This document shows positions 4,189 to 60,940 of a stretch of 64,000 nucleotides of DNA, piece after piece. The stretch is from a virus. Positions within the stretch are counted from its first letter, which is position 1. Every line of letters begins with the position of its first letter. Where the stretch lies: IMG/VR virus record IMGVR_UViG_3300020165_000009; one strand, 5' to 3'. The notes under the pieces were generated by a model, which was given only the letters and a program-made list of their open reading frames with translations, was not told the DNA's origin and ran no database searches. Made by a program: the position numbers and the translations under genes.

Positions 4189-4265
4189 TGGTACACCAGG
4201 AGGAACTCGAATCCCCGACCCACGGATTAGAAATCCGTTGCTCTATCCAACTGAGCTACTGGTGC
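4189..4265 (-). tRNA. tRNA-Arg (TCT)
   Basis: GCACCAG acceptor, TAGCTCAGTTGGATAGAGC D-arm, ACGGA-TT-TCT-AA-TCCGT, encoded CCA. Confidence 0.93.
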
Positions 4266-4549: not shown

Positions 4550-4635
4550 TGGTGGGCAGGGCTGGATTCGAACCAGCGAAGGCGATAGCCAGGAGATTTA
4601 CAGTCTCCCCTCGTTGGCCACTTGAGTACCTACCC
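4550..4635 (-). tRNA. tRNA-Tyr (GTA)
   Basis: GGGTAGG acceptor, GGAGA-CT-GTA-AA-TCTCC, long variable arm, GGTTCGAATCC, encoded CCA. Confidence 0.95.
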
Positions 4636-9538: not shown

Positions 9539-10063
9539 ATGGCTAATAAACGTATAACCGACCTACCGATTAGTACACCCTTGATAGGCACTGAAGCTCT
9601 TGTTATGGATCAGGAGTCTACTCTTACGGTCACAGGTATTGATACCGTGCAGACCACGCTATCTTCAATACAAGAGTTTACCTTATCAGCAGCACCCTTT
9701 ATAAATGTTACTGGTGGTGCAACCTTTAGTGGTACGTCAGAATTTTTTGGTGATGTTATAATGACCAGTGCACGGACTGCCATCGGTGAAGAAGCTGGGC
9801 GCATTGAATTTCAAGTAACAGATGATCTCGTCGTAGAAGGTCCTTCAGAATTCAATGAAGACGTTGAAATCATCGGCGGTGACCTGGATGTCACAACCGG
9901 GGATATATTATCTGCAGGTGAAAATCTTGGCGACATTTTTGCCTACAAAGGTCAGTTCATACAGAACGGAGGAGGTGTTGAATTTATACAAAGACTAACT
10001 CAAGCGCAATATGATGCTATAGGTACACCTGACCCGACCATACTTTACATAATCGTAGGATAA
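9539..10063 (+). CDS. Tail fibre/adaptor protein
   Basis: N-terminal MANKRITDL; C-terminal LTQAQYDAIGTPDPTILYII motif common in phage fibre adaptors. Confidence 0.6.
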   Translation: MANKRITDLPISTPLIGTEALVMDQESTLTVTGIDTVQTTLSSIQEFTLSAAPFINVTGGATFSGTSEFFGDVIMTSARTAIGEEAGRIEFQVTDDLVVEGPSEFNEDVEIIGGDLDVTTGDILSAGENLGDIFAYKGQFIQNGGGVEFIQRLTQAQYDAIGTPDPTILYIIVG

Positions 10064-10064
10064 T

Positions 10065-11912
10065 ATGAGTGTTTTAACGTTTGTAACTATTGGCGATGAA
10101 GGTAACGCTGTTGATACCACCGGCTATGGTGATGTATCATATGCATATGATATTAGTAAGTTTGAAATTACTGAAGGTAACATTGCTGAATATAATGCTG
10201 ACCCTGCAAATAGCACTCGTCTGATTACAATAGATAGTCGTGGTACTGATAAACCAGCTACAGACATAACTTGGAACGAATGTGCTCGTTATGTTAACTG
10301 GCTTAATATAAATGATGGAGCTCAACCAGCGTATAATTTTGCTCTACCCGGCATTAATGAATATATTGATCTTTGGACTTCTGGCGAAGCATGGCAGCTT
10401 GATGGTGAGAATCTCTTTAGACATAAAGACGCAAAATACTTTATACCGAACGAAAATGAGTGGTATAAAGCCGCTTATTATAAGGGTGGCGGCACTAACG
10501 CTGGTTATTGGTTATATCCAACAGGATCCGATACTGCTCCAACAGCTGTAACATCTGGAACTGTTGATGATACCGCGGTATATGTCGGTGCCGGTGTAAC
10601 ACCTTTAAGCCCAGCTGATGTCACAGAGGCTGGTGGGCTCAGTCCTTATGGTACAATGGGACAAGGTGGTAATGTATACGAACATACGGAGAATACTTTT
10701 GATGGCGCTAACGTTAACGTCTTTGCTAATCGGGTATACCGTGGCGGTAGCTCTGGTACCCTTTCAAACACCTTGATAAATACCTCACGTGCGTTTGCCG
10801 GTGCACAAACCGGGAGCCCTTCGGTAGGTCTTCGTGTCGCAAAAGTGTCAGCTCCAGCACCTCCGCGACCACTAGTGCCGAATCAATTTGTTACAATTGC
10901 TAATACTAGTAATGTCGATGACACTACTGGGTATGGTGCTGTTAGTTACGAATACCAAATAAGTAAGTTCGAAGCTCCTGAGTCTGAGATTGATGCTTAT
11001 AATGCCGATCCAATTAACGCGAACACACTTATTACAAAAGATAGTCGTGGTGCTAATAAACCAGCAACAGACGTAACTTGGAATGAGTGTGCGAGATATG
11101 TAAACTGGCTCAATATTAAAGAGTCTAGATTGCCAGCATATCTATTTCTTGATGATGATATTACTAGTAATATTACTCCTTGGGATAGTGCTGATGCCTG
11201 GCAACTAGGTGGTGAAAATCTCTTTAGGCATAGAGATGCTAAGTACTTTTTGCCAAGTGAAGATGAGTGGTATAAAGCAGCATATTATGGTGGGGGAGTG
11301 TATTATACATACCCAACAGGAAGCAATAGTGCTCCAGCAACAACAACCGAAGGTACACTCCCTGACACTGCGGTATACATTGACGGAGTGAATCCAAACC
11401 CACCAGGTCCTGCTGATGTAGATCTAGCCGGCGGGCTTAGTCCGTATGGTACGATGGCTCAAGGCGGTAATACGTACGAGTGGAACGAATCGACATCGGA
11501 CGGTTTAAACAATGATACTAATGGAGCTCGTGTCCTCCGCGGCGGCGCCTGGTATTCCTCCTCCCTCGACTTGCAGTCGTCCTTCCGCAGCACCATCCAC
11601 CCCCCGGACTACGAGATCGCCGGCGTCGGTTTTCGTGTCGTAGCAATACAGCCACCGTCAGCGCCAAATACATCACCAGTTCTAAATTTAGCTGATAATC
11701 TTAAGGTTGGTGCTCTTCAAGTCACGGCGGCTTATCTTGATTCAACAAGAGTGTGGCCTAATGATCTCGCTCTCTGGAGCTTCGAATCACCAGGAGGCTC
11801 TACAATTACAGGTTTCAAGATAACCACCTCAAGTGGTGATGTTATCATTAATTGGGGTGACGGTACTGAAGATACTGTAAATTCAGGTCAGGTTATAAAT
11901 AAAACATACTAA
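10065..11912 (+). CDS. Putative receptor-binding protein with two FGE-sulfatase (C-type lectin fold) domains; probable DGR target
   Basis: Two about 260-aa repeats with ISKFE, EWYKAAY, QGGNxYE, RGG...GFRV; C-terminal LKVG...AYLD..VWP and INWGDG. Confidence 0.8.
   Translation: MSVLTFVTIGDEGNAVDTTGYGDVSYAYDISKFEITEGNIAEYNADPANSTRLITIDSRGTDKPATDITWNECARYVNWLNINDGAQPAYNFALPGINEYIDLWTSGEAWQLDGENLFRHKDAKYFIPNENEWYKAAYYKGGGTNAGYWLYPTGSDTAPTAVTSGTVDDTAVYVGAGVTPLSPADVTEAGGLSPYGTMGQGGNVYEHTENTFDGANVNVFANRVYRGGSSGTLSNTLINTSRAFAGAQTGSPSVGLRVAKVSAPAPPRPLVPNQFVTIANTSNVDDTTGYGAVSYEYQISKFEAPESEIDAYNADPINANTLITKDSRGANKPATDVTWNECARYVNWLNIKESRLPAYLFLDDDITSNITPWDSADAWQLGGENLFRHRDAKYFLPSEDEWYKAAYYGGGVYYTYPTGSNSAPATTTEGTLPDTAVYIDGVNPNPPGPADVDLAGGLSPYGTMAQGGNTYEWNESTSDGLNNDTNGARVLRGGAWYSSSLDLQSSFRSTIHPPDYEIAGVGFRVVAIQPPSAPNTSPVLNLADNLKVGALQVTAAYLDSTRVWPNDLALWSFESPGGSTITGFKITTSSGDVIINWGDGTEDTVNSGQVINKTY
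11529..11640 (+). other. DGR variable-region-like segment
   Basis: 75/112 GC, 11 A; 26 of 37 codons end in C, none in A; spans RGG..GFRV of the second CLec domain. Confidence 0.75.
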
Positions 11913-11920
11913 ATATTATT

Positions 11921-12649
11921 ATGGCAACATTGTTGAGTATAGCTCCCGTAGATGGTAATTCGTCAGTGACGCAAATCGACGTCGGTAATAGTTCTCCTAA
12001 ACTTGGTGGTACTCTTAATGTTTCTGCTTTTCCAAATTTAGAAGAAATAAGATGTGACGGGAATGACATAGCAGAGTTTACAGGGTATGCAGAAAATCCT
12101 AATATAAAAGTGGTGCTAGCAGCGCAAAACCAACTAAGCGGACCCATTCCGGACATCACTGGTATGACCAGCTTAGAATATTTCTGGGTTATGGTTAATG
12201 GCTTTACCGGATCGTTTCCGGATATTTCTCAAAATACTGAACTGAGACTTATAAATGTTGGTGGTAATAATCTGACTGGTACCCTACCAGCGTCGATAGA
12301 GTTTCCATCCATGTTCCGGTTCAACGTCTACGATAATTCCTTCACTGGGTCTATTCCAGACTGTAGTAACACACCAAACCTAGATTATCTTCTAGCTGAC
12401 GGTAATAGTCTCACAGACTTTACCGGGGGTTTTCCGACTGCGCTTCGTCGGATTTTCCTAAACAACAATAACCTTACAGAAACCGCGGTTGATAATGTAC
12501 TCCAAGCTGTCGTTGATGCTAATAGAACCACAAATATGAGTGGTTGTGTAATAAACCTTGGTGGGTCGGGTAATTCAGCTCCATCAGCAGCAGGTATTGC
12601 AAATAAGAATACCCTCATTGGTAGAGGGTGGTCTGTAAGTACAAACTAA
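11921..12649 (+). CDS. Leucine-rich-repeat tail-associated protein
   Basis: NQLSGPIPD, NGFTGSFPD, NNLTGTLPA, NSFTGSIPD repeats; C-terminal RGWSV. Confidence 0.75.
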   Translation: MATLLSIAPVDGNSSVTQIDVGNSSPKLGGTLNVSAFPNLEEIRCDGNDIAEFTGYAENPNIKVVLAAQNQLSGPIPDITGMTSLEYFWVMVNGFTGSFPDISQNTELRLINVGGNNLTGTLPASIEFPSMFRFNVYDNSFTGSIPDCSNTPNLDYLLADGNSLTDFTGGFPTALRRIFLNNNNLTETAVDNVLQAVVDANRTTNMSGCVINLGGSGNSAPSAAGIANKNTLIGRGWSVSTN

Positions 12650-13855: not shown

Positions 13856-15820
13856 ATGAGTAAGGGAACGTCTATATACCATTTCAGTAGCACAGTCTTA
13901 TACAACGAAGTATTTGATCCTAGGGAAGATTTAATTGTATCTCTAGTACGTACAAACGAAGAGCAGGAAAACCTAGGTGCATTAAGACTCGAGGGAGGTA
14001 GTTTCGGCGGCAGCCTACTGGCACTTGAGCCTACGCGACAGAACCCGACTGGTACACTTGGTTATAATTTCTCTAATGAGTTTGAGAATCTATGTTTATA
14101 TCTCTTTGATGCATCAGTAGATACGTCGAACTTTTCCGGCATTGACGGGCCCTCGCGTAGCACGGCAATTTCTGCTTTTGATGTTGCTCACGTACCTGGT
14201 AATATTTTCCTAAGCGGCGATAACCCCGTACCGAATAGGTATTATAGGAGTTTTGGATCAGCTCCACTACCACCTGCAACCCCAACAGTATTATATGATA
14301 CGAGTGGTACTCCAGTAGTTTCCATAACAACAGATATACCAGATAACTGGAACACTAGCGGCTCATCTTACCCGACTGCGACTCGCTTAGAAATTGGAAC
14401 AAGCTGTACTGTAGTTGGCTTCCAAGCCTTTACATATTCGAACGTAGCTTCCGGATTAAATTCTACGGAATTACTAATACCTTATAGTGTAACTGATGTT
14501 GGCACTCAAGCCTTTCAAGGTACGGGATTTACATCAATAAGTTTAGATAGTGGATTGGTAAATATAGGAGATGCAGCATTTTACGAAATGGAGAAGCTAG
14601 AAGGTGAAGTAATAATTCCTGAAGGTGTTATAACTATTGGTCAAGCGGCCTTTGCAACCTCTGGCACTCTTGACGACGGGGGCGGTATCACATCGATAAC
14701 TATTCCAAGTAGTGTAACAAGTATTGGAGCAAATGCGTTTGCGCAGCCGACTGCCGGTTTCCCAGGTGATCGAGGCAGCGTGCTAGCCTTAACGAGGGTT
14801 AATTGCTATGTGAATAAATCGATTGTTGATGCAGGAGTTAATTCACTAGGCGGAAATAACGGCTTAACAGAGATTCATGTTCGTCAAAATGACTCTTCTT
14901 GGACTGCTGGCCCTGGGCAAACTGTTGGCGGGTTAACCTTATTCGTGATTAAAGATTTAGTGGAATCACCTACAAGTGCGGGGTGGAATGCAGATACTGC
15001 ATGGGTTGACTCAGCCGGTACTTCTGAATTCAGATATACTTACAACGATTCTAAATATGGTAGTCCTCAAAATGGGTGGGAGTTTAGATATACAACAGCC
15101 GAGCCAGGCAGCAGCACAAACTGCTTCTACACTACAGTCTCTTCTGCTAGTGGTTTATTTCCATGGGAGATACCAAGTTGGTACGTTACCAATAACAGCT
15201 CTAATACATATGCTCTTTCTACAGCTAGTACAGTCGATTTAACATTATCAGGATTTACAACCAAATATGGTCTGTCGATAGACAATGCTTATGAACTCGA
15301 TGGCCCTGGGGCTAGCGTTTTAACAGACCTAACTCAGCCAGTTACAAGATTGACTGACCCTACATCTTTCGGTTCATTCCTATCCGGTGCATTAGTATTA
15401 GCTTGTGTAGATAACAACGGAGCTTTTAGTTTATCAGGTAGTCAAGATGGATTTTATAGTGGCGGTACTGAGACATTATCATCAAAGGTATTCAGTGTTA
15501 GGGCATTATCTGCATTACAGAGCACTAGATCAGCAGAATTATGTACGTTTGACTTTAAAGGTGCTGTTGTACCTGAAGATGGTTATTCAACTATCGATGA
15601 TAGGTGGAAGCTTCTAAGAGTTGGATTTAAACGGAACCTACAAGATGTTGTTCTATATATACGTGAAAACGGCATATATGAAACTCAACAAGTTTTCAGT
15701 ACAGGATTTAACTTAGAACAAATACCAGCTGGCGTTAAGTTGGGGATTTCATACTCAGGTCATATGCCTATGGAAATTCAAAACCTAACCATTAATGGTA
15801 TATTAACATCAGCATCATAA
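13856..15820 (+). CDS. Virion structural protein with internal BspA-type LRR module
   Basis: IPYSVTDVGTQAF, IPEGVITIGQAAF, IPSSVTSIGANAF; late promoter core upstream. Confidence 0.7.
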   Translation: MSKGTSIYHFSSTVLYNEVFDPREDLIVSLVRTNEEQENLGALRLEGGSFGGSLLALEPTRQNPTGTLGYNFSNEFENLCLYLFDASVDTSNFSGIDGPSRSTAISAFDVAHVPGNIFLSGDNPVPNRYYRSFGSAPLPPATPTVLYDTSGTPVVSITTDIPDNWNTSGSSYPTATRLEIGTSCTVVGFQAFTYSNVASGLNSTELLIPYSVTDVGTQAFQGTGFTSISLDSGLVNIGDAAFYEMEKLEGEVIIPEGVITIGQAAFATSGTLDDGGGITSITIPSSVTSIGANAFAQPTAGFPGDRGSVLALTRVNCYVNKSIVDAGVNSLGGNNGLTEIHVRQNDSSWTAGPGQTVGGLTLFVIKDLVESPTSAGWNADTAWVDSAGTSEFRYTYNDSKYGSPQNGWEFRYTTAEPGSSTNCFYTTVSSASGLFPWEIPSWYVTNNSSNTYALSTASTVDLTLSGFTTKYGLSIDNAYELDGPGASVLTDLTQPVTRLTDPTSFGSFLSGALVLACVDNNGAFSLSGSQDGFYSGGTETLSSKVFSVRALSALQSTRSAELCTFDFKGAVVPEDGYSTIDDRWKLLRVGFKRNLQDVVLYIRENGIYETQQVFSTGFNLEQIPAGVKLGISYSGHMPMEIQNLTINGILTSAS

Positions 15821-40883: not shown

Positions 40884-42701
40884 TTACACCATTGGTCCTG
40901 TTGAGGTTGCGCGCATGTCTGCTACGGACATCCCGGTGAAGTCTGATGTACCAGCATATCCAGGAGTTGTACGTCCTCCTTCGCTTGGTGTCAACGTACT
41001 AAATAGTAATTTGCCGAGATCCAATAATAACGTATTACGCTCTTCATCCAGTTCAATTTGTGTAGCCATGTGATCTGCATGCATTTCATGTAGATTTATT
41101 AATATTTTACCATTACTTTCAAAACCGGCTGCTAATGTTGTTAGGAGTGGTCCTCCTTCTTTCATAGCATATATGGTGTCCATCGGATTAGCTTGAGCTA
41201 ATACTCGACCGTCTTGACTAAAGATAATGCCATCATCAACTTGTGCGAGTGGTTCACCAATTATTGGTTGTCTCAGGCCTTTAAACAATTTTGAGTTTAA
41301 TGCCCATTCTCCTAATGTTGAAGTCTTATCACCTAACTTTTTTGCAATAAGTCCCCCTAGGAGCCTACCACCTACGTCACCTAATACACCACCAGCAATA
41401 GCACCAACTATGTTACCTGCTATTGGGACCCCTGATCCAATTGCACCTCCGAGAATAGCGCCACCAGCTCCACCAATAACACCAGTTACTGCTTTAATTA
41501 ACCTTGTACCGACCTTTTCATTCAACTCAGCATCATCTATGTCACCGAGCTCATGCTGCTTTACCAACTCTTCCACATCTTTATATGTGAAAAAAGACTC
41601 GAGTATGGGTGCTAAAAGGGGACTTTTTAAAAGCCCTCTTACCAGTTTCAACGGTTTAACTTTTTGAATTGCGGCGCCTACTGGCTTTAAAACTGTATCC
41701 TTTGTAAATTTGAGTGCTCTAGTAGCTCCACTCCTCACTGCCCCGCCTACTGCCGCGCCGGCTCTTCCAACCGCTTGTGCTCCGCCCCTTACTGCCTGTG
41801 CGCCCCTGGCGGCTGCACTGCTCACTTTACTACCAACGTAGCTAGCAGCCCCGGAAAAAAAGCCTTTAGTTGCACTAGCGGCCTGACTGACTGCCTTACC
41901 GGCCGGTGACCCGGTTATCTTCCGAGCTATTTCAGCTGCTTTTTTCTTTGCTGCCTCCATTCCCTTCACGAGAGATGATCCAAACTTGGATATTCTACTT
42001 GCAATTCTTTCAAAGGCTCCGCCAAATTTAGTCGATATAGTATTAACTATTTCTTTAACTTTTGTACCGGCCTTTTCTATGCCTTTTTTGGCACTCGTGG
42101 CGGCGCTACTGAGCCTATTACCTATACGGGCAGCCATCTCCATAACCTTTTTACGCATAGGTGCAATAGCCTTGCTCACAGCCTTACTCGCTTTATCAAG
42201 TCGGCTAGTTACTCCTTTCCTAATAGATTTCGCCAAATCACTAATTCTAGTACCTATCCGTGATAATACATTCCCAGCTCTTACTGCAAACTTATCAATT
42301 CTCTTGTAAACTTGTTGTAAGCCTGATACAAGACCTACAATACCTTGACCATCAACTAATGCCGCAAGACCTGCACCGACTCCTACTAATTTTAATAGGC
42401 CCATTAGGTCACTATTATTTTTCTCCTGCTGTTTTTCTAAAGCTGCTTCAGTCTCGCGACCGAAAGCTCTAGCAAGATCATCTTCAGCATCAGGTCCAAA
42501 ATTAGTAATTACAACATCTTTAGGCCTTTCTACAATATCTCGTGGCCCTTGAGCTTCGCGCGGTGCAGTAGAGCCTCGCGATGTTGTTGATGCGCGCGCG
42601 CCCTTACCAACCTCTTTCTGAAGGATTTTTAGTTGGTTCGCCGTATCAGCTGATACTTTAGTTAGTAGCGAAATTGCTTCCGCAATAGTAGGTTCTGCCA
42701 T
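40884..42701 (-). CDS. Tape-measure-like protein (gp29 position)
   Basis: 605 aa helical, A/G/K-rich, GAILGGAIG..GAIAGG repeats. Confidence 0.65.
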   Translation of the reverse strand: MAEPTIAEAISLLTKVSADTANQLKILQKEVGKGARASTTSRGSTAPREAQGPRDIVERPKDVVITNFGPDAEDDLARAFGRETEAALEKQQEKNNSDLMGLLKLVGVGAGLAALVDGQGIVGLVSGLQQVYKRIDKFAVRAGNVLSRIGTRISDLAKSIRKGVTSRLDKASKAVSKAIAPMRKKVMEMAARIGNRLSSAATSAKKGIEKAGTKVKEIVNTISTKFGGAFERIASRISKFGSSLVKGMEAAKKKAAEIARKITGSPAGKAVSQAASATKGFFSGAASYVGSKVSSAAARGAQAVRGGAQAVGRAGAAVGGAVRSGATRALKFTKDTVLKPVGAAIQKVKPLKLVRGLLKSPLLAPILESFFTYKDVEELVKQHELGDIDDAELNEKVGTRLIKAVTGVIGGAGGAILGGAIGSGVPIAGNIVGAIAGGVLGDVGGRLLGGLIAKKLGDKTSTLGEWALNSKLFKGLRQPIIGEPLAQVDDGIIFSQDGRVLAQANPMDTIYAMKEGGPLLTTLAAGFESNGKILINLHEMHADHMATQIELDEERNTLLLDLGKLLFSTLTPSEGGRTTPGYAGTSDFTGMSVADMRATSTGPMV

Positions 42702-58351: not shown

Positions 58352-58592
58352 TTTTCTTATATTGTGCTTGTATTACTTTATAAACATCTCCTGGAACGGT
58401 TTTCATCAACTGTAATATCTCCTTATGGACTCCATTATAGAAATCCTCATGAGGTACAGATATATTTGCCATATCAGGTATTCTAAGAAAATTATACGAC
58501 AGTTCCTCTTCCTTAATGAAGACGAACGATTGACCAGCGTAATCACCGTGATGACACGCGTATATCTCTTTCTCTTTCGGCTTATCGGTCAT
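58332..58592 (-). CDS. Hypothetical protein
   Basis: Packed ORF. Confidence 0.55.
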   Translation of the reverse strand: MTDKPKEKEIYACHHGDYAGQSFVFIKEEELSYNFLRIPDMANISVPHEDFYNGVHKEILQLMKTVPGDVYKVIQAQYKKNENTDN

Positions 58593-59556
58593 TACTAATA
58601 TAATAACCTATGTAGTCAGTTAATTCAACTACAAAGTCATTATATGTGCCTTGTTGCATGCCAATTTTCTTAGCCTTACTGCAATCGATGGCGTATCTAA
58701 AGTCATGACCCAGGCGATCCGCGACGAACTCTATATTATCGACAGGTTCTTTACCCATAATCTCACAGACTAGCTTAACAAGCTCTAAATTTGTTAACTC
58801 TACACCACTACCAATATTGTATACCCCGGCATCACCCTTAATAGCGACGTTCCAGACGGCTTCATTATGAGATGTAACGTGAATCCATTCCCGAACGTTA
58901 TTACCTTTACCATATACCGGAATCTTATTACCATTCTTTAAGGAGTCAATAATAGTCGGTATAAATTTCTCTTTATATTGATTAGGTCCGAAGTTATTAC
59001 AACAACGTGTTATCCCAATGTCTAAGCCATACGTCTTCATATATGATATACACATCAGGTCACTCGATGCCTTACTAGCAGCATAGGGAGAGCGTGGGGA
59101 TAACGGGGTCTCCTCAGTGAAGGCAGGGTCAGTTAGATCTAAGTGACCATACACCTCATCAGTAGATATATGAATGAATCTGCCATGACCTTTATTCCGG
59201 ACACGGTAACATTCTAGAAGATTCTGAGTACCTAATACATTCGATTCGACAAAAACAGTAGGTCCGGAAATGCTATTATCTACATGAGACTCAGCAGCAA
59301 AGTGAAAGATATAATCATATGGCTCATCTTCATCGAATCGCATCTCAAGCGCCGGTACATCCGTAATATCAATATCATAAGTCTCATCACAGTACGGGCT
59401 AGCATACTCTTTGTTTGACGCGTAACCGTTCTTGTCAATATTAACAATGTATACACTCTGCTGAAAAGTCTCACGTAGGTATTGTATAAAATTACCACCA
59501 ATAAACCCATAACCTCCTGTGACAAGTATTTTAGGTCTATTAATAGCCGTCGTCAT
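58582..59556 (-). CDS. rfbB: NDP-glucose 4,6-dehydratase
   Basis: TGGYGFIG, AAESHVDNSI, HISTDEVYG, SPYAASKA, DRLGHDFRY. Confidence 0.93.
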   Translation of the reverse strand: MTTAINRPKILVTGGYGFIGGNFIQYLRETFQQSVYIVNIDKNGYASNKEYASPYCDETYDIDITDVPALEMRFDEDEPYDYIFHFAAESHVDNSISGPTVFVESNVLGTQNLLECYRVRNKGHGRFIHISTDEVYGHLDLTDPAFTEETPLSPRSPYAASKASSDLMCISYMKTYGLDIGITRCCNNFGPNQYKEKFIPTIIDSLKNGNKIPVYGKGNNVREWIHVTSHNEAVWNVAIKGDAGVYNIGSGVELTNLELVKLVCEIMGKEPVDNIEFVADRLGHDFRYAIDCSKAKKIGMQQGTYNDFVVELTDYIGYYISNDR

Positions 59557-60061
59557 CGCGAATATTTGGGTTCTGCTTAATTGTTTGTTTTGTAATTAGG
59601 TCTTTAAATTTTGTAGTAGACCATTCATGTGACCGAGTAGTATATATAACTTCTGCTCTGAGCTCGCTACCTGTAAAATCTTTACCTAAATAATCTTCAC
59701 CTAATATACGAACATCGCAATCGAATGTCTTCATTAGCTCGTATAATTCTTCTTCCGTCTGGTACATATATACCTCATCAATATGCTTAATAGACATAAG
59801 CATTTTATAACGATCGTAATACGGTACGACAGGCTTATACTTTGTATTACGAGTAGCAGAAGGGTCGCCGTGTAGGAAGACAATAAACTTATCACAATGT
59901 CGCTTAGCTTCTTCAAACGTTGCAGTATAACCCGGGTGAATTATATCAAAGTTACCAGCTGTAAAGGCTGTAATGTCACCGGTCGGTTTGTATTTTTTGA
60001 TACGCTTATATACCTCACTTTTATGCTGGTCGATAAGTCGTTGTAATTGGTAATTATCCAT
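59540..60061 (-). CDS. Cytidylyl/adenylyltransferase (TagD/RfaE-II-like)
   Basis: AGNFDIIHPGY, LGEDY, RSHEWSTT. Confidence 0.8.
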   Translation of the reverse strand: MDNYQLQRLIDQHKSEVYKRIKKYKPTGDITAFTAGNFDIIHPGYTATFEEAKRHCDKFIVFLHGDPSATRNTKYKPVVPYYDRYKMLMSIKHIDEVYMYQTEEELYELMKTFDCDVRILGEDYLGKDFTGSELRAEVIYTTRSHEWSTTKFKDLITKQTIKQNPNIRDDDGY

Positions 60062-60073
60062 ATTTTTTTATGC

Positions 60074-60940
60074 TTATTTCTCTTCTTCTTGCAATATCTC
60101 TGTCATCGCCTGAAAGCTTTTTCGAATGTAATACTCTTCATCACCCCAATCAAAATCAAATACTAGTTTACTCTTATCGTTACTCAAGACGCAATTACTT
60201 CTACCACACTTCGTGTTTAAGTCTTCAAAATCCACAAACTCCCACTCTGGGTTAACTGTGAGTGGATATTCTTTAGATATCTCTATTACTTCTTTTGTAG
60301 TGAGTGCGTTACTATGAACCGCATTAAATATACCAGGTTCAAAATCATCGATAACAGTCTCAATAAACTCACACAGAACTGTTACATCTGTCTTACTGTT
60401 CCTATAATCAATCAGCTTACTATAGCCTTTTAGTTTATGTAACAGGTTTTTTGAATCTAGAGTACCTTCAATTGGCATTCTAATTCTAATGATGTTAGTA
60501 AAGTTGGTATCGAGGTTAAGTTCACCGGCATGCTTTGTCTTACTATAAAAACTAGAATCACTATCAAACATTCCGAAGTTAGGTTCATCATCTTCAGTAT
60601 ACTCTTTATCATACCCGGTGTAAATGCAGCCAGAACTAACATGAATTAGGTTCACTCTTTTAATCTTGCAAACCTCTTCAATATCTCGAGGTAGAATTGA
60701 ATTCTGAATAAAGCATTCTTCTTTTCGAACCTCACATTCATCAACATTAGGCTTACCGGTGAACCCTGCACAATTAACAACAGCATCAATAGCTGTCTTA
60801 TCTAAAAAATTAAAAAAGCGACTTTTATCGCCGTAGTCTAGCTCTTCTCTAGAGAAGTTGTATACTGTATGCTTCTCGCGAATCAAGTATTCAGTCAAGC
60901 GAGAGGCAATAAAGCCTTTTGATAGTACGAGTATATTCAT
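60074..60940 (-). CDS. NDP-4-keto-6-deoxyglucose 3,5-epimerase/4-reductase (NRS/ER-type RmlD-like SDR)
   Basis: CAGFTGKPNVDECE, SSGCIY, FYSKTK, RIRMPI, RSNCVL. Confidence 0.8.
   Translation of the reverse strand: MNILVLSKGFIASRLTEYLIREKHTVYNFSREELDYGDKSRFFNFLDKTAIDAVVNCAGFTGKPNVDECEVRKEECFIQNSILPRDIEEVCKIKRVNLIHVSSGCIYTGYDKEYTEDDEPNFGMFDSDSSFYSKTKHAGELNLDTNFTNIIRIRMPIEGTLDSKNLLHKLKGYSKLIDYRNSKTDVTVLCEFIETVIDDFEPGIFNAVHSNALTTKEVIEISKEYPLTVNPEWEFVDFEDLNTKCGRSNCVLSNDKSKLVFDFDWGDEEYYIRKSFQAMTEILQEEEK

What the first reader, a model, noticed from the sequence alone, without database searches (positions are those of the whole stretch)
11529..11640. Orphan DGR variable region inside a tail-cluster lectin: possibly diversified in trans
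Seen: a sharply bounded 112-nt patch with 67% GC and only 11 adenines in an AT-rich gene; 26 of 37 codons end in C and none in A. It encodes RVLRGGAWYSSSLDLQSSFRSTIHPPDYEIAGVGFRV, the ligand-binding end of an FGE-type CLec domain. Established: DGR adenine mutagenesis turns template AAC codons into NNC at exactly this position of FGE/CLec targets. The inferred template would read about RGGNWNNNSNNLQSSNRNNNNNPxNENNNIGFRV. Unusual points: no reverse transcriptase, Avd or template repeat is visible in 64 kb; the VR is internal, with about 90 aa after it; and even its invariant codons are GC-rich (CGC, GGC, CCG, TCG). Inference: a remote target served either by a distant phage DGR cassette or by a GC-rich host's chromosomal DGR, i.e. 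a T4-like phage borrowing host hypermutation for a receptor-binding protein.
Basis: partly seen in the sequence, partly recalled or inferred. Interest (0 to 1): 0.9.

Follow-up and report, generated by a model that had tools for sequence, protein, structure and literature searches.

The report
Phage lectin loop templated by bacterial DGR
A 106-base GC-rich patch in a tail-cluster lectin gene of an AT-rich marine T4-like phage is a genuine DGR variable region, but its template, reverse transcriptase and helper gene lie in the chromosome of Oceaniferula-like Verrucomicrobia, so a bacterial hypermutation system and a phage binding protein appear coupled across genomes.

Summary
Window 11529-11640 (core 11535-11640) is 67% GC, with 11 adenines and GC3 of 0.86 against 0.28 in the rest of the gene.

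- **Template found.** A metagenome scan found the predicted template almost word for word. It is a 126-nt AAC-rich TR lying behind bAvd and a DGR-type RT (contig L158). The RT is 90% identical to one in an Oceaniferula sp. MAG, where the cassette sits among housekeeping genes.
- **Fit to the template.** Against this TR the window differs at 23 of 34 adenine sites but at only 1 of 69 other sites (Fisher p = 1e-13). It also has one extra codon inside the (AAC)4 run.
- **Phage lacks the machinery.** The window, a complete 170-kb relative, 30 related phage loci and IMG/VR hold no RT, Avd or TR of this kind.
- **Shared ancestry.** The phage lectin scaffold is an AT-ameliorated homologue (55% aa) of the DGR's own bacterial target.
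- **Open points.** Whether the patch was written in by host-made cDNA or picked up finished from a bacterial VR is unresolved. Contig consensus sequences are static, phage VRs lack the downstream hairpin, and there is no independent host evidence.

This scan has reported the same kind of coupling on other DNA (cyanobacterial and planctomycete hosts).

The parts
10065..11912 (+). Gene for a 615-aa protein with two tandem FGE-sulfatase (C-type-lectin-fold) domains, in the tail/receptor-binding cluster
   Evidence: ORF list. Pfam PF03781 E 6e-29 with two stretches. AF2 model of domain 2 (pLDDT 60.7) matches CarF, Treponema TvpA 2y3c (E 1e-4) and FGEs.
11535..11640 (+). Fresh DGR variable region (VR core) of domain 2. 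It runs from CTCCGCGGCGGC to GGTTTTCGTGTCG, and BLASTN to the template spans 11529-11643.
   Evidence: Against TR L158:1631-1756, 34 A sites have 23 changed and 69 non-A sites have 1 changed. One 3-nt insertion lies in the (AAC)4 run. GC3 is 0.86.
11473..11534 (+). Phage-type (AT-rich) stretch just upstream of the VR. Together with the VR it forms the only block that differs from the orthologue L001.
   Evidence: Window vs L001: about 100% identical over 10890-11472 and 11641-11745, divergent over 11473-11640. Window 11470-11547 matches the L001 domain-1 allele up to CGCGGCGGC.
10740..10841 (+). Eroded VR-equivalent of domain 1 (CGTGGCGGT ... GGTCTTCGTGTCGCA), with mixed codon endings and many non-A differences from the template
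   Evidence: Alignment A1; coordinates. BLASTN with the TR does not hit it.
11643..11909 (+). 89-residue C-terminal tail after the VR, conserved in L001 and L002, with no Pfam match
9539..10063 (+). Upstream neighbour, a 174-aa protein with the Phage_tail_C tail-tip motif
   Evidence: Pfam PF24243 E 5e-11.
11921..12649 (+). Downstream neighbour, a 242-aa leucine-rich-repeat protein
   Evidence: Pfam LRR_4/LRR_1.
13856..15820 (+). 654-aa BspA-type LRR protein in the same plus-strand receptor-binding run
   Evidence: Pfam LRR_5 E 1e-15.

Best explanation
Tier 1 (about 0.9): the patch is a true DGR variable region in the ligand-binding end of the second C-type-lectin-fold domain of a phage tail-cluster protein. 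Its sequence was copied, with adenine-specific scrambling, from the template repeat of a chromosomal DGR (target - bAvd - RT - TR) of Oceaniferula-like marine Verrucomicrobia. The phage carries none of that machinery. The phage lectin domain is an old, AT-ameliorated homologue of that DGR's own bacterial target; only the TR-homologous 106-126 nt are kept in, or returned to, the template's GC-rich spelling.

Tier 2 (about 0.55, inferred): the copying happens in trans during infection of a DGR-bearing cell. Host Avd-RT makes adenine-mutagenised cDNA from TR RNA. That cDNA replaces the homologous stretch of replicating phage DNA, anchored at the common 3' end (GGTTTTCGTGTCG) and resolved 5' at short homologies such as CGCGGCGGC. 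Such events are rare and episodic. New alleles then spread among phages by cassette recombination, and unused copies erode towards phage composition.
For: Template and cassette:
- TR found at L158:1631-1756 with 15 AAC codons, directly behind bAvd (PF22296) and an RVT_1 RT carrying IGNLTSQ and YVDD.
- The RT is 90% identical to one in Oceaniferula sp. MAG CBFHPA010000012 and 67-69% identical to RTs in Rubritalea profundi and Verrucomicrobiaceae E54.
- In those genomes the cassette lies beside fumarase, MnmE, UbiE and LptF/G.
- L157 overlaps the L158 start at 97.6%. It shows the cognate target to be a 616-aa collagen-repeat + FGE protein.

Fit of the window VR:
- Against the TR, 23/34 A sites and 1/69 non-A sites differ, p = 1e-13.
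- The Rubritalea TR gives 8 non-A mismatches and other TRs 9 or more.
- The extra codon lies in the (AAC)4 run and also occurs in bacterial VRs L150/L159.

Phage and bacterial VR alleles compared:
- Seven other phage-type VR alleles have 14-26/34 A sites changed and 0-5 non-A mismatches.
- They show the same A-site spectrum as bacterial VRs, and none equals a sampled bacterial allele.

Scaffold against VR:
- The scaffold is 55% aa identical to the bacterial target.
- Third-position identity in conserved residues is 0.18-0.5 in most scaffold bins, with phage GC3 of 0.07-0.47.
- In the VR, third-position identity is 0.71-0.83 and GC3 is 0.8-1.0.

Phage lacks the machinery:
- No RVT_1 in 10 related phage records, including a complete DTR genome.
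- No RT or Avd by tblastn and no A-tolerant TR.
- No TR or RT relative in IMG/VR.

Tract boundaries:
- Fresh tracts never exceed the TR span and share the 3' end, while the 5' ends vary. They are full length in L017, L002 and L098, and start at CGCGGCGGC in the window and L015.

Laboratory precedent:
- Plasmid-borne avd-TR-brt retrohomes into a phage lacking them during lytic infection, with residual activity when the hairpin is absent (PMC3240598; PMC12875486).
Against: - Phage VRs lack the GC hairpin that follows the bacterial VRs. In BPP-1 its loss cuts homing more than 1000-fold.
- Consensus VRs are identical across several assemblies.
- In a 61-member protein cluster the VR varies at only one A-site codon, while other lectin loops vary more.
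- Differences between near-identical phages are cassette swaps that include non-TR scaffold.
- There is no independent host link. The phage RmlB-like gene is at most 50% identical to Verrucomicrobiales genes. DNA search of 61 Oceaniferula relatives gave only tRNA and target-gene hits.
- The known TR differs from the window by one non-A base and one codon, so the exact cognate TR was not found.
- The rest of this phage's genome could not be read.
Confidence: 0.55

Rival explanations
1. Picked up finished. The phage never receives cDNA. Instead, fragments of the host's already diversified target gene recombine with the phage homologue through the short conserved VR ends, during T4-like degradation of host DNA. 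The phage VR is then a captured bacterial allele.
For: Phage and bacterial VRs are statistically indistinguishable. Recombination clearly moves these cassettes among phages. The phage VRs lack the homing hairpin. An earlier check of the same claim on other DNA left this question open.
Against: Outside the TR span, phage and bacterial genes are only about 45-65% identical at the DNA level in most bins. The arms available for crossover are therefore about 11-24 nt. In the window lineage the nearest allele (L001 domain 1) has an eroded interior and arms of only about 11-13 nt. No bacterial scaffold or downstream flank is co-transferred in any of the eight or so phage alleles. No phage allele matches a sampled bacterial allele: maximum A-site identity is 0.56 and the median 0.32. 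Sampling is thin.
Confidence: 0.27
2. The phage has its own DGR cassette elsewhere in the unsampled part of its genome, or a co-infecting mobile element or temperate phage of the same host carries it.
For: Only 64 kb of a genome of at least 150 kb was readable. Another reader noted a GC-rich non-coding island about 84 kb beyond the window.
Against: A complete 170,716-bp DTR relative with a fresh VR has no RVT_1, RT, Avd or TR. Nine other related records have none. IMG/VR holds no relative of this RT and no TR of this type. Notes on four windows of this genome mention no RT. The matching cassettes sit among housekeeping genes.
Confidence: 0.06
3. Relic. The whole lectin domain, VR included, was acquired once from a bacterium and the patch merely survives, kept GC-rich by selection or by chance, with no later rewriting.
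For: The consensus is static across assemblies. Eroded copies exist: window domain 1, L001 domain 2, L013.
Against: The scaffold is saturated at synonymous sites and fully AT-ameliorated, while VR non-A sites, synonymous ones included, are 98.6% identical to the TR. Phage alleles whose scaffolds differ by 25-50% share near-perfect non-A sites yet have unrelated A-site contents. The orthologue L001 is about 100% identical on both sides but carries an eroded VR.
Confidence: 0.05

Closest known systems
Bordetella phage BPP-1 DGR (mtd VR - avd - TR - brt)
   Same: A phage receptor-binding protein with a C-type-lectin-fold variable region, AAC-to-NNC adenine mutagenesis, and a VR at the end of the lectin domain.
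   Different: In BPP-1 the whole cassette is phage-encoded and adjacent, and the VR is followed by IMH and a hairpin. Here the phage has only the VR, with no hairpin, 90 residues follow it, and the cassette is in a bacterial chromosome.
Chromosomal DGRs with remote FGE/CLec targets (Treponema denticola TvpA family; Lineage 4 of Wu et al. 2018, PMC5758913)
   Same: FGE-sulfatase-type lectin targets. One TR serves targets that are not next to the RT. The fold search hits TvpA 2y3c.
   Different: Known remote targets lie in the same genome. That survey argues that remote targets make sense only for non-phage DGRs. Here the extra target sits on an infecting phage genome.
Laboratory trans system: donor plasmid avd-TR-brt acting on BPP-1 phage lacking them (Guo et al. 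2011, PMC3240598) and the E. coli reconstitution (PMC12875486)
   Same: Template and enzymes supplied by the cell rewrite a target on a replicating phage or plasmid. The hairpin is helpful but not absolutely required.
   Different: That system is engineered, and its targets carried IMH and a hairpin. Here the pairing would be natural, between a bacterial chromosome and a T4-like phage, without the hairpin.
Verrucomicrobial chromosomal DGR (Oceaniferula MAG L193, Rubritalea profundi L194, metagenome L157+L158)
   Same: It supplies the TR that matches the window. Its own targets (PEP-CTERM or collagen-repeat FGE proteins) are homologous to the phage domain over its whole length.
   Different: Those targets are bacterial surface proteins with the VR at or near the C-terminus and a GC hairpin after it.

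Membership tests
Diversity-generating retroelement (DGR) system | TR/VR pair whose differences fall almost only on template adenines | tested here: met
   23 of 34 A sites and 1 of 69 non-A sites differ, Fisher p = 1e-13. The same pattern holds in seven other phage alleles.
Diversity-generating retroelement (DGR) system | DGR-clade reverse transcriptase next to the TR | tested here: met
   This was met only in bacterial DNA. L158:516-1601 gives RVT_1 at E 2e-23 and carries IGNLTSQ and YVDD, as do L193 and L194. It was not found in the window, G001 or related phage loci.
Diversity-generating retroelement (DGR) system | Accessory variability determinant (Avd) | tested here: met
   The bAvd family PF22296 lies upstream of the RT in L158, L193 and L194. 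None is present in phage DNA.
Diversity-generating retroelement (DGR) system | Target, TR and RT on one replicon | tested here: not met
   The phage records lack a TR and RT, and the cassette is chromosomal in Verrucomicrobia. The rest of this phage's own genome was not readable.
Diversity-generating retroelement (DGR) system | Cis homing signals at the VR 3' end (IMH-like end plus adjacent hairpin/cruciform) | tested here: not met
   The shared 3' end GGTTTTCGTGTCG is present. However, the GC hairpin seen after bacterial VRs (e.g. GCAGCTCTTGAGCTGC) is absent after every phage VR examined.
Diversity-generating retroelement (DGR) system | Ongoing hypervariability of the VR within a population | tested here: inconclusive
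   No reads were available. Contig consensus sequences are identical across assemblies. A 61-member cluster shows four VR cassettes, but only one A-site change within the main allele.
FGE-sulfatase / C-type-lectin-fold DGR variable proteins | FGE-type lectin fold with the VR forming the C-terminal part of the domain | tested here: met
   Pfam PF03781 E 6e-29. A moderate AF2 model matches CarF, TvpA and FGEs. The VR aligns with the VRs of the bacterial targets.
T4-like (Straboviridae-related) myovirus | T4-type terminase, tail sheath and baseplate wedge genes | tested here: met
   PHROG hits for baseplate wedge, tail sheath and large terminase. The terminase is 31-36% identical to those of T4-like cyanophages and other T4-like phages.

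The most novel reading that the evidence does not exclude
Virulent T4-like marine phages routinely use the chromosomal DGR of the Verrucomicrobia they infect as an outsourced mutator for a receptor-binding lectin. They keep only short homology arms in an otherwise AT-rich gene. TR-VR matching then becomes a sequence-only way to assign hosts to uncultured phages, and a DGR template acts as a shared resource, or a battleground, between a cell and its viruses.
Probability: 0.5. Interest if true: 0.9.

Novelty: new variant of a known kind. Interest (0 to 1): 0.85.

Why it matters
DGRs are described as self-contained cassettes. Published surveys search for targets next to the RT, or at least in the same genome, and argue that phage-associated DGRs should not have remote targets. 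Here a phage gene carries a fresh VR whose only known template and enzymes are in a bacterial chromosome, and the phage domain is a homologue of that DGR's own target.

If host-made cDNA writes phage DNA, three things follow:
- Host range evolution of abundant marine phages partly depends on a host-encoded mutator.
- DGR surveys undercount targets.
- TR-VR matches give a new culture-free phage-host link, here pointing an uncultured T4-like lineage to Oceaniferula-type Verrucomicrobia.

Even under the rival (capture of finished bacterial VRs), it documents repeated, precisely bounded flow of hypervariable binding loops from bacteria to their viruses. The question is directly testable with amplicon sequencing.

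Tried and rejected
- **TR inside the window.** An A-tolerant ungapped scan found only noise. Other GC-rich stretches (41.7 kb, 62.7 kb) are Ala/Gly- or Pro/Gln-rich coding low complexity, not templates.
- **The phage in GenBank phages.** Neither megablast nor tblastn with the lectin gene gave a match.
- **Whole genome of the window.** It is not held. An exact look-up of the protein found no record, so the rest of the genome could not be scanned.
- **Exact patch in IMG/VR.** None.
- **TR or RT in IMG/VR.** The pattern scan found only VRs. No RT relatives were found.
- **Independent host evidence.** The RmlB-like gene is at most 50% identical to genes of Verrucomicrobiales, which is uninformative. 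A 20-kb DNA search of 61 Oceaniferula relatives gave only tRNA and target-gene hits, with no spacer-like match.
- **Sequence search of PDB.** Only spurious antibody hits.
- **L047.** This locus matched a loose regex but is unrelated.
- **Assembly chimera.** Rejected. The patch is in frame, flanked on both sides by phage sequence, and recurs in many independent assemblies and alleles.
- **Literature.** I found no report of a natural host-to-virulent-phage DGR pairing in the searchable library.

Full report
**1. The observation**

Window 11529-11640 is 112 nt with 46 C, 29 G, 26 T and 11 A. That is 67% GC in a window of 38.6% GC.
- Of the codons it touches, 26 end in C. In the rest of the gene 15% do.
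- For the core 11535-11640, GC3 is 0.86 against 0.28.
- Arg, Gly, Ser and Pro are spelled CGC, GGC, TCC/TCG and CCC/CCG inside the patch. Outside it they are mostly CGT/AGA, GGT, AGT/TCA and CCA/CCT.
- Only one other place in the window is as GC-rich over 106 nt. That is an Ala/Gly-rich stretch of the tape-measure-like gene.

The protein has two FGE-sulfatase domains (Pfam E 6e-29). A moderate AlphaFold model of domain 2 (pLDDT 60.7) finds CarF, the Treponema DGR variable protein TvpA and FGEs.

The gene sits among receptor-binding-type genes: a tail-tip-motif protein, LRR proteins, an endosialidase-chaperone protein and a tail fibre. The same window holds baseplate wedge, tail sheath and large terminase genes. 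The terminase is 31-36% identical to those of T4-like phages.

**2. Relatives carry homologous patches**

IMG/VR holds 75 loci encoding relatives. Several AT-rich, phage-type contigs carry homologous GC-rich patches. Blocks such as CGCGGCGGC, CTGG, TTGCAGTCGTCC, CCGC, CCG and GGTTTTCGTGTCG are conserved, and the codons between them are unrelated NNC codons. This is the look of a DGR variable region (VR).

**3. The phages lack the machinery**
- An A-tolerant scan finds no template repeat (TR) in the window.
- None is found in G001, a 170,716-bp relative with direct terminal repeats rated 100% complete, which carries a fresh patch.
- RVT_1 is absent from ten related phage records.
- tblastn with the RT and Avd found later gives nothing in the window, G001 or 30 loci.
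- A pattern that the true template satisfies finds only VRs in IMG/VR.
- IMG/VR has no relative of the RT.

**4. The template exists in bacteria**

- One, L158 (2,151 bp, GC 0.57), holds a 126-nt AAC-rich copy at 1631-1756 with 15 AAC codons.
- Immediately upstream lie a bAvd-family gene and a 362-aa RVT_1 protein with IGNLTSQ and YVDD.
- The RT is 90% identical to one in an Oceaniferula sp. MAG. It is 67-69% identical to RTs in Rubritalea profundi and another Verrucomicrobiaceae genome.
- In those genomes the order is FGE-sulfatase target (with PEP-CTERM) - bAvd - RT - TR. The neighbours are fumarase, MnmE, UbiE-type methyltransferase, sulfate permease and LptF/G, so the cassette is chromosomal.
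- L157 overlaps the start of L158 at 97.6%. It shows that cassette's own target: a 616-aa secreted protein with collagen repeats and a C-terminal FGE domain ending in the VR.
- TR-like sequence occurs in 38 of 401 sampled Verrucomicrobiales genomes.

**5. Fit of the window to the template**

Against L158 and the Oceaniferula TR, the core differs at 23 of 34 adenine sites and at 1 of 69 other sites. That one site is the third base of TAT. Fisher p = 1e-13.

There is also one extra codon inside the (AAC)4 run. Bacterial VRs L150/L159, which share Oceaniferula flanks, have the same extra codon. A TR length variant or slippage in that repeat is therefore likely.

The Rubritalea TR gives 8 non-A mismatches and other TRs 9 or more. 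The donor lineage is thus Oceaniferula-like.

**6. The patch is younger than the gene**

The phage domain is homologous to the bacterial targets along its whole length: 55% aa to L157 and 47% to Rubritalea. In the scaffold the synonymous sites are saturated.
- Third-position identity within conserved residues is 0.18-0.5 in most bins.
- Phage GC3 there is 0.07-0.47, against 0.33-0.93 in the bacterium.
- Inside the VR, third-position identity is 0.71-0.83 and GC3 is 0.8-1.0.

Phage alleles whose scaffolds differ by 25-50% all keep near-perfect non-A sites, with 0-5 mismatches. Their A-site contents are unrelated to one another.

The orthologue L001 is about 100% identical to the window over 10890-11472 and 11641-11745 but has an eroded VR. 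The window's 11470-11547 matches L001's domain-1 allele up to CGCGGCGGC, after which the window follows the template to GTGTCG.

Domain 1 of the window (10740-10841) is an eroded equivalent. So there is a series from fresh to decayed copies. Fresh tracts never exceed the TR span and always include its 3' end. Their 5' ends vary.

**7. Written in, or picked up finished?**

Both routes use the same short homologies, so sequence alone cannot decide.

For writing by host cDNA:
- The arms available for ordinary recombination are only about 11-24 nt.
- No bacterial flank is ever co-transferred.
- No phage allele equals a sampled bacterial allele: maximum A-site identity 0.56, median 0.32. The A-site spectra match.
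- The laboratory has shown that plasmid-borne avd-TR-brt rewrites a phage lacking them during lytic infection, with residual activity when the hairpin is absent (PMC3240598; PMC12875486).

Against:
- Phage VRs lack the GC hairpin present after bacterial VRs.
- VR consensus sequences are identical across assemblies.
- In a 61-member cluster of one phage protein the VR changes at a single A-site codon, while other lectin loops vary more.
- Near-identical phages differ by swaps of cassettes that include scaffold.
- I found no independent evidence that these phages infect Verrucomicrobia.

An earlier check within this scan, on other DNA, left the same question open.

I put trans writing at about 0.55, capture at about 0.27, a hidden phage or mobile-element cassette at about 0.06, and a pure relic at about 0.05.

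**8. Comparison with what is known**

Remote targets in the same genome, and trans action on plasmids, are established (PMC5758913). A large metagenome survey states that it could not detect remote targets (PMC8144416). RT-less VRs have been read as fossils or remote targets (PMC4372165).

I found no paper describing a natural pairing of a bacterial chromosomal DGR with a VR on a virulent phage.

This scan has reported the same kind of pairing on other DNA: a cyanophage with cyanobacterial templates, and two large phages with planctomycete-type templates. The present case adds Verrucomicrobiota. It has a template recovered at 1/69 non-A mismatches, its full cassette, and its cognate bacterial target homologous to the phage domain.

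**9. Verdict**

The feature is a new variant of a known kind: a DGR whose variable region sits on another genome. The route and the present activity remain to be shown.

Noticed in passing
window 4189-4265 and 4550-4635 (minus strand): Two phage tRNA genes, tRNA-Arg(TCT) and tRNA-Tyr(GTA). They gave the only widespread DNA hits to Verrucomicrobial genomes (78-96% identity), which is not host-specific.
   Followed up: partly
window 10740-10841: The equivalent segment of lectin domain 1 is an eroded VR: CGTGGCGGT ... GGTCTTCGTGTCGCA, with mixed codon endings. It serves as an internal control for what the patch looks like without rewriting.
   Followed up: yes
window 41699-41866 (minus-strand gene 40884..42701): A second GC-rich island (up to 70% GC). 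It is simply an Ala/Gly/Arg-rich low-complexity stretch of a tape-measure-like protein and is not related to the TR.
   Followed up: yes
L015 vs L017, locus coordinates 10980-11549: Two phage contigs are 95% identical overall and almost identical around the gene. They differ by a 560-nt block (25% divergent) covering most of one lectin domain and ending at the VR 3' end, which indicates cassette swapping between alleles.
   Followed up: partly
proteins P0002-P0016 (cluster of the L015/L017 1565-aa protein), residues 569-576 and 626-644: Two other loops of the lectin domain are more polymorphic in the population than the VR itself. No template-type pattern was examined for them.
   Followed up: no
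L097 1-4644: An AT-rich contig carries two consecutive genes that end in TR-type VRs (…GFRVAAVPE, then stop). One is a 951-aa protein with two FGE domains. A Cys-rich HNH-like gene follows. This appears to be a second phage-like lineage with orphan VRs of the 'ATA' TR variant.
   Followed up: partly
L157 3213-5063 and L158 1-1760: The bacterial cognate target is a secreted protein with a signal peptide, NTA-type repeats, collagen triple-helix repeats and a C-terminal FGE domain. An autotransporter-repeat-like protein lies nearby. What it binds is unknown.
   Followed up: no
L194 (Rubritalea profundi scaffold, 21 kb around the DGR): Local GC is only 0.38, although other cassette-bearing loci are 0.52-0.64. 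Its TR and VR are nevertheless GC-rich, so the GC-rich spelling is a property of the TR family and not only of the genome.
   Followed up: no
window 58582-60940 (minus strand): A dTDP-glucose 4,6-dehydratase-like gene and an RmlD-like epimerase/reductase gene. The best Verrucomicrobiales matches are only 43-50% identical.
   Followed up: partly
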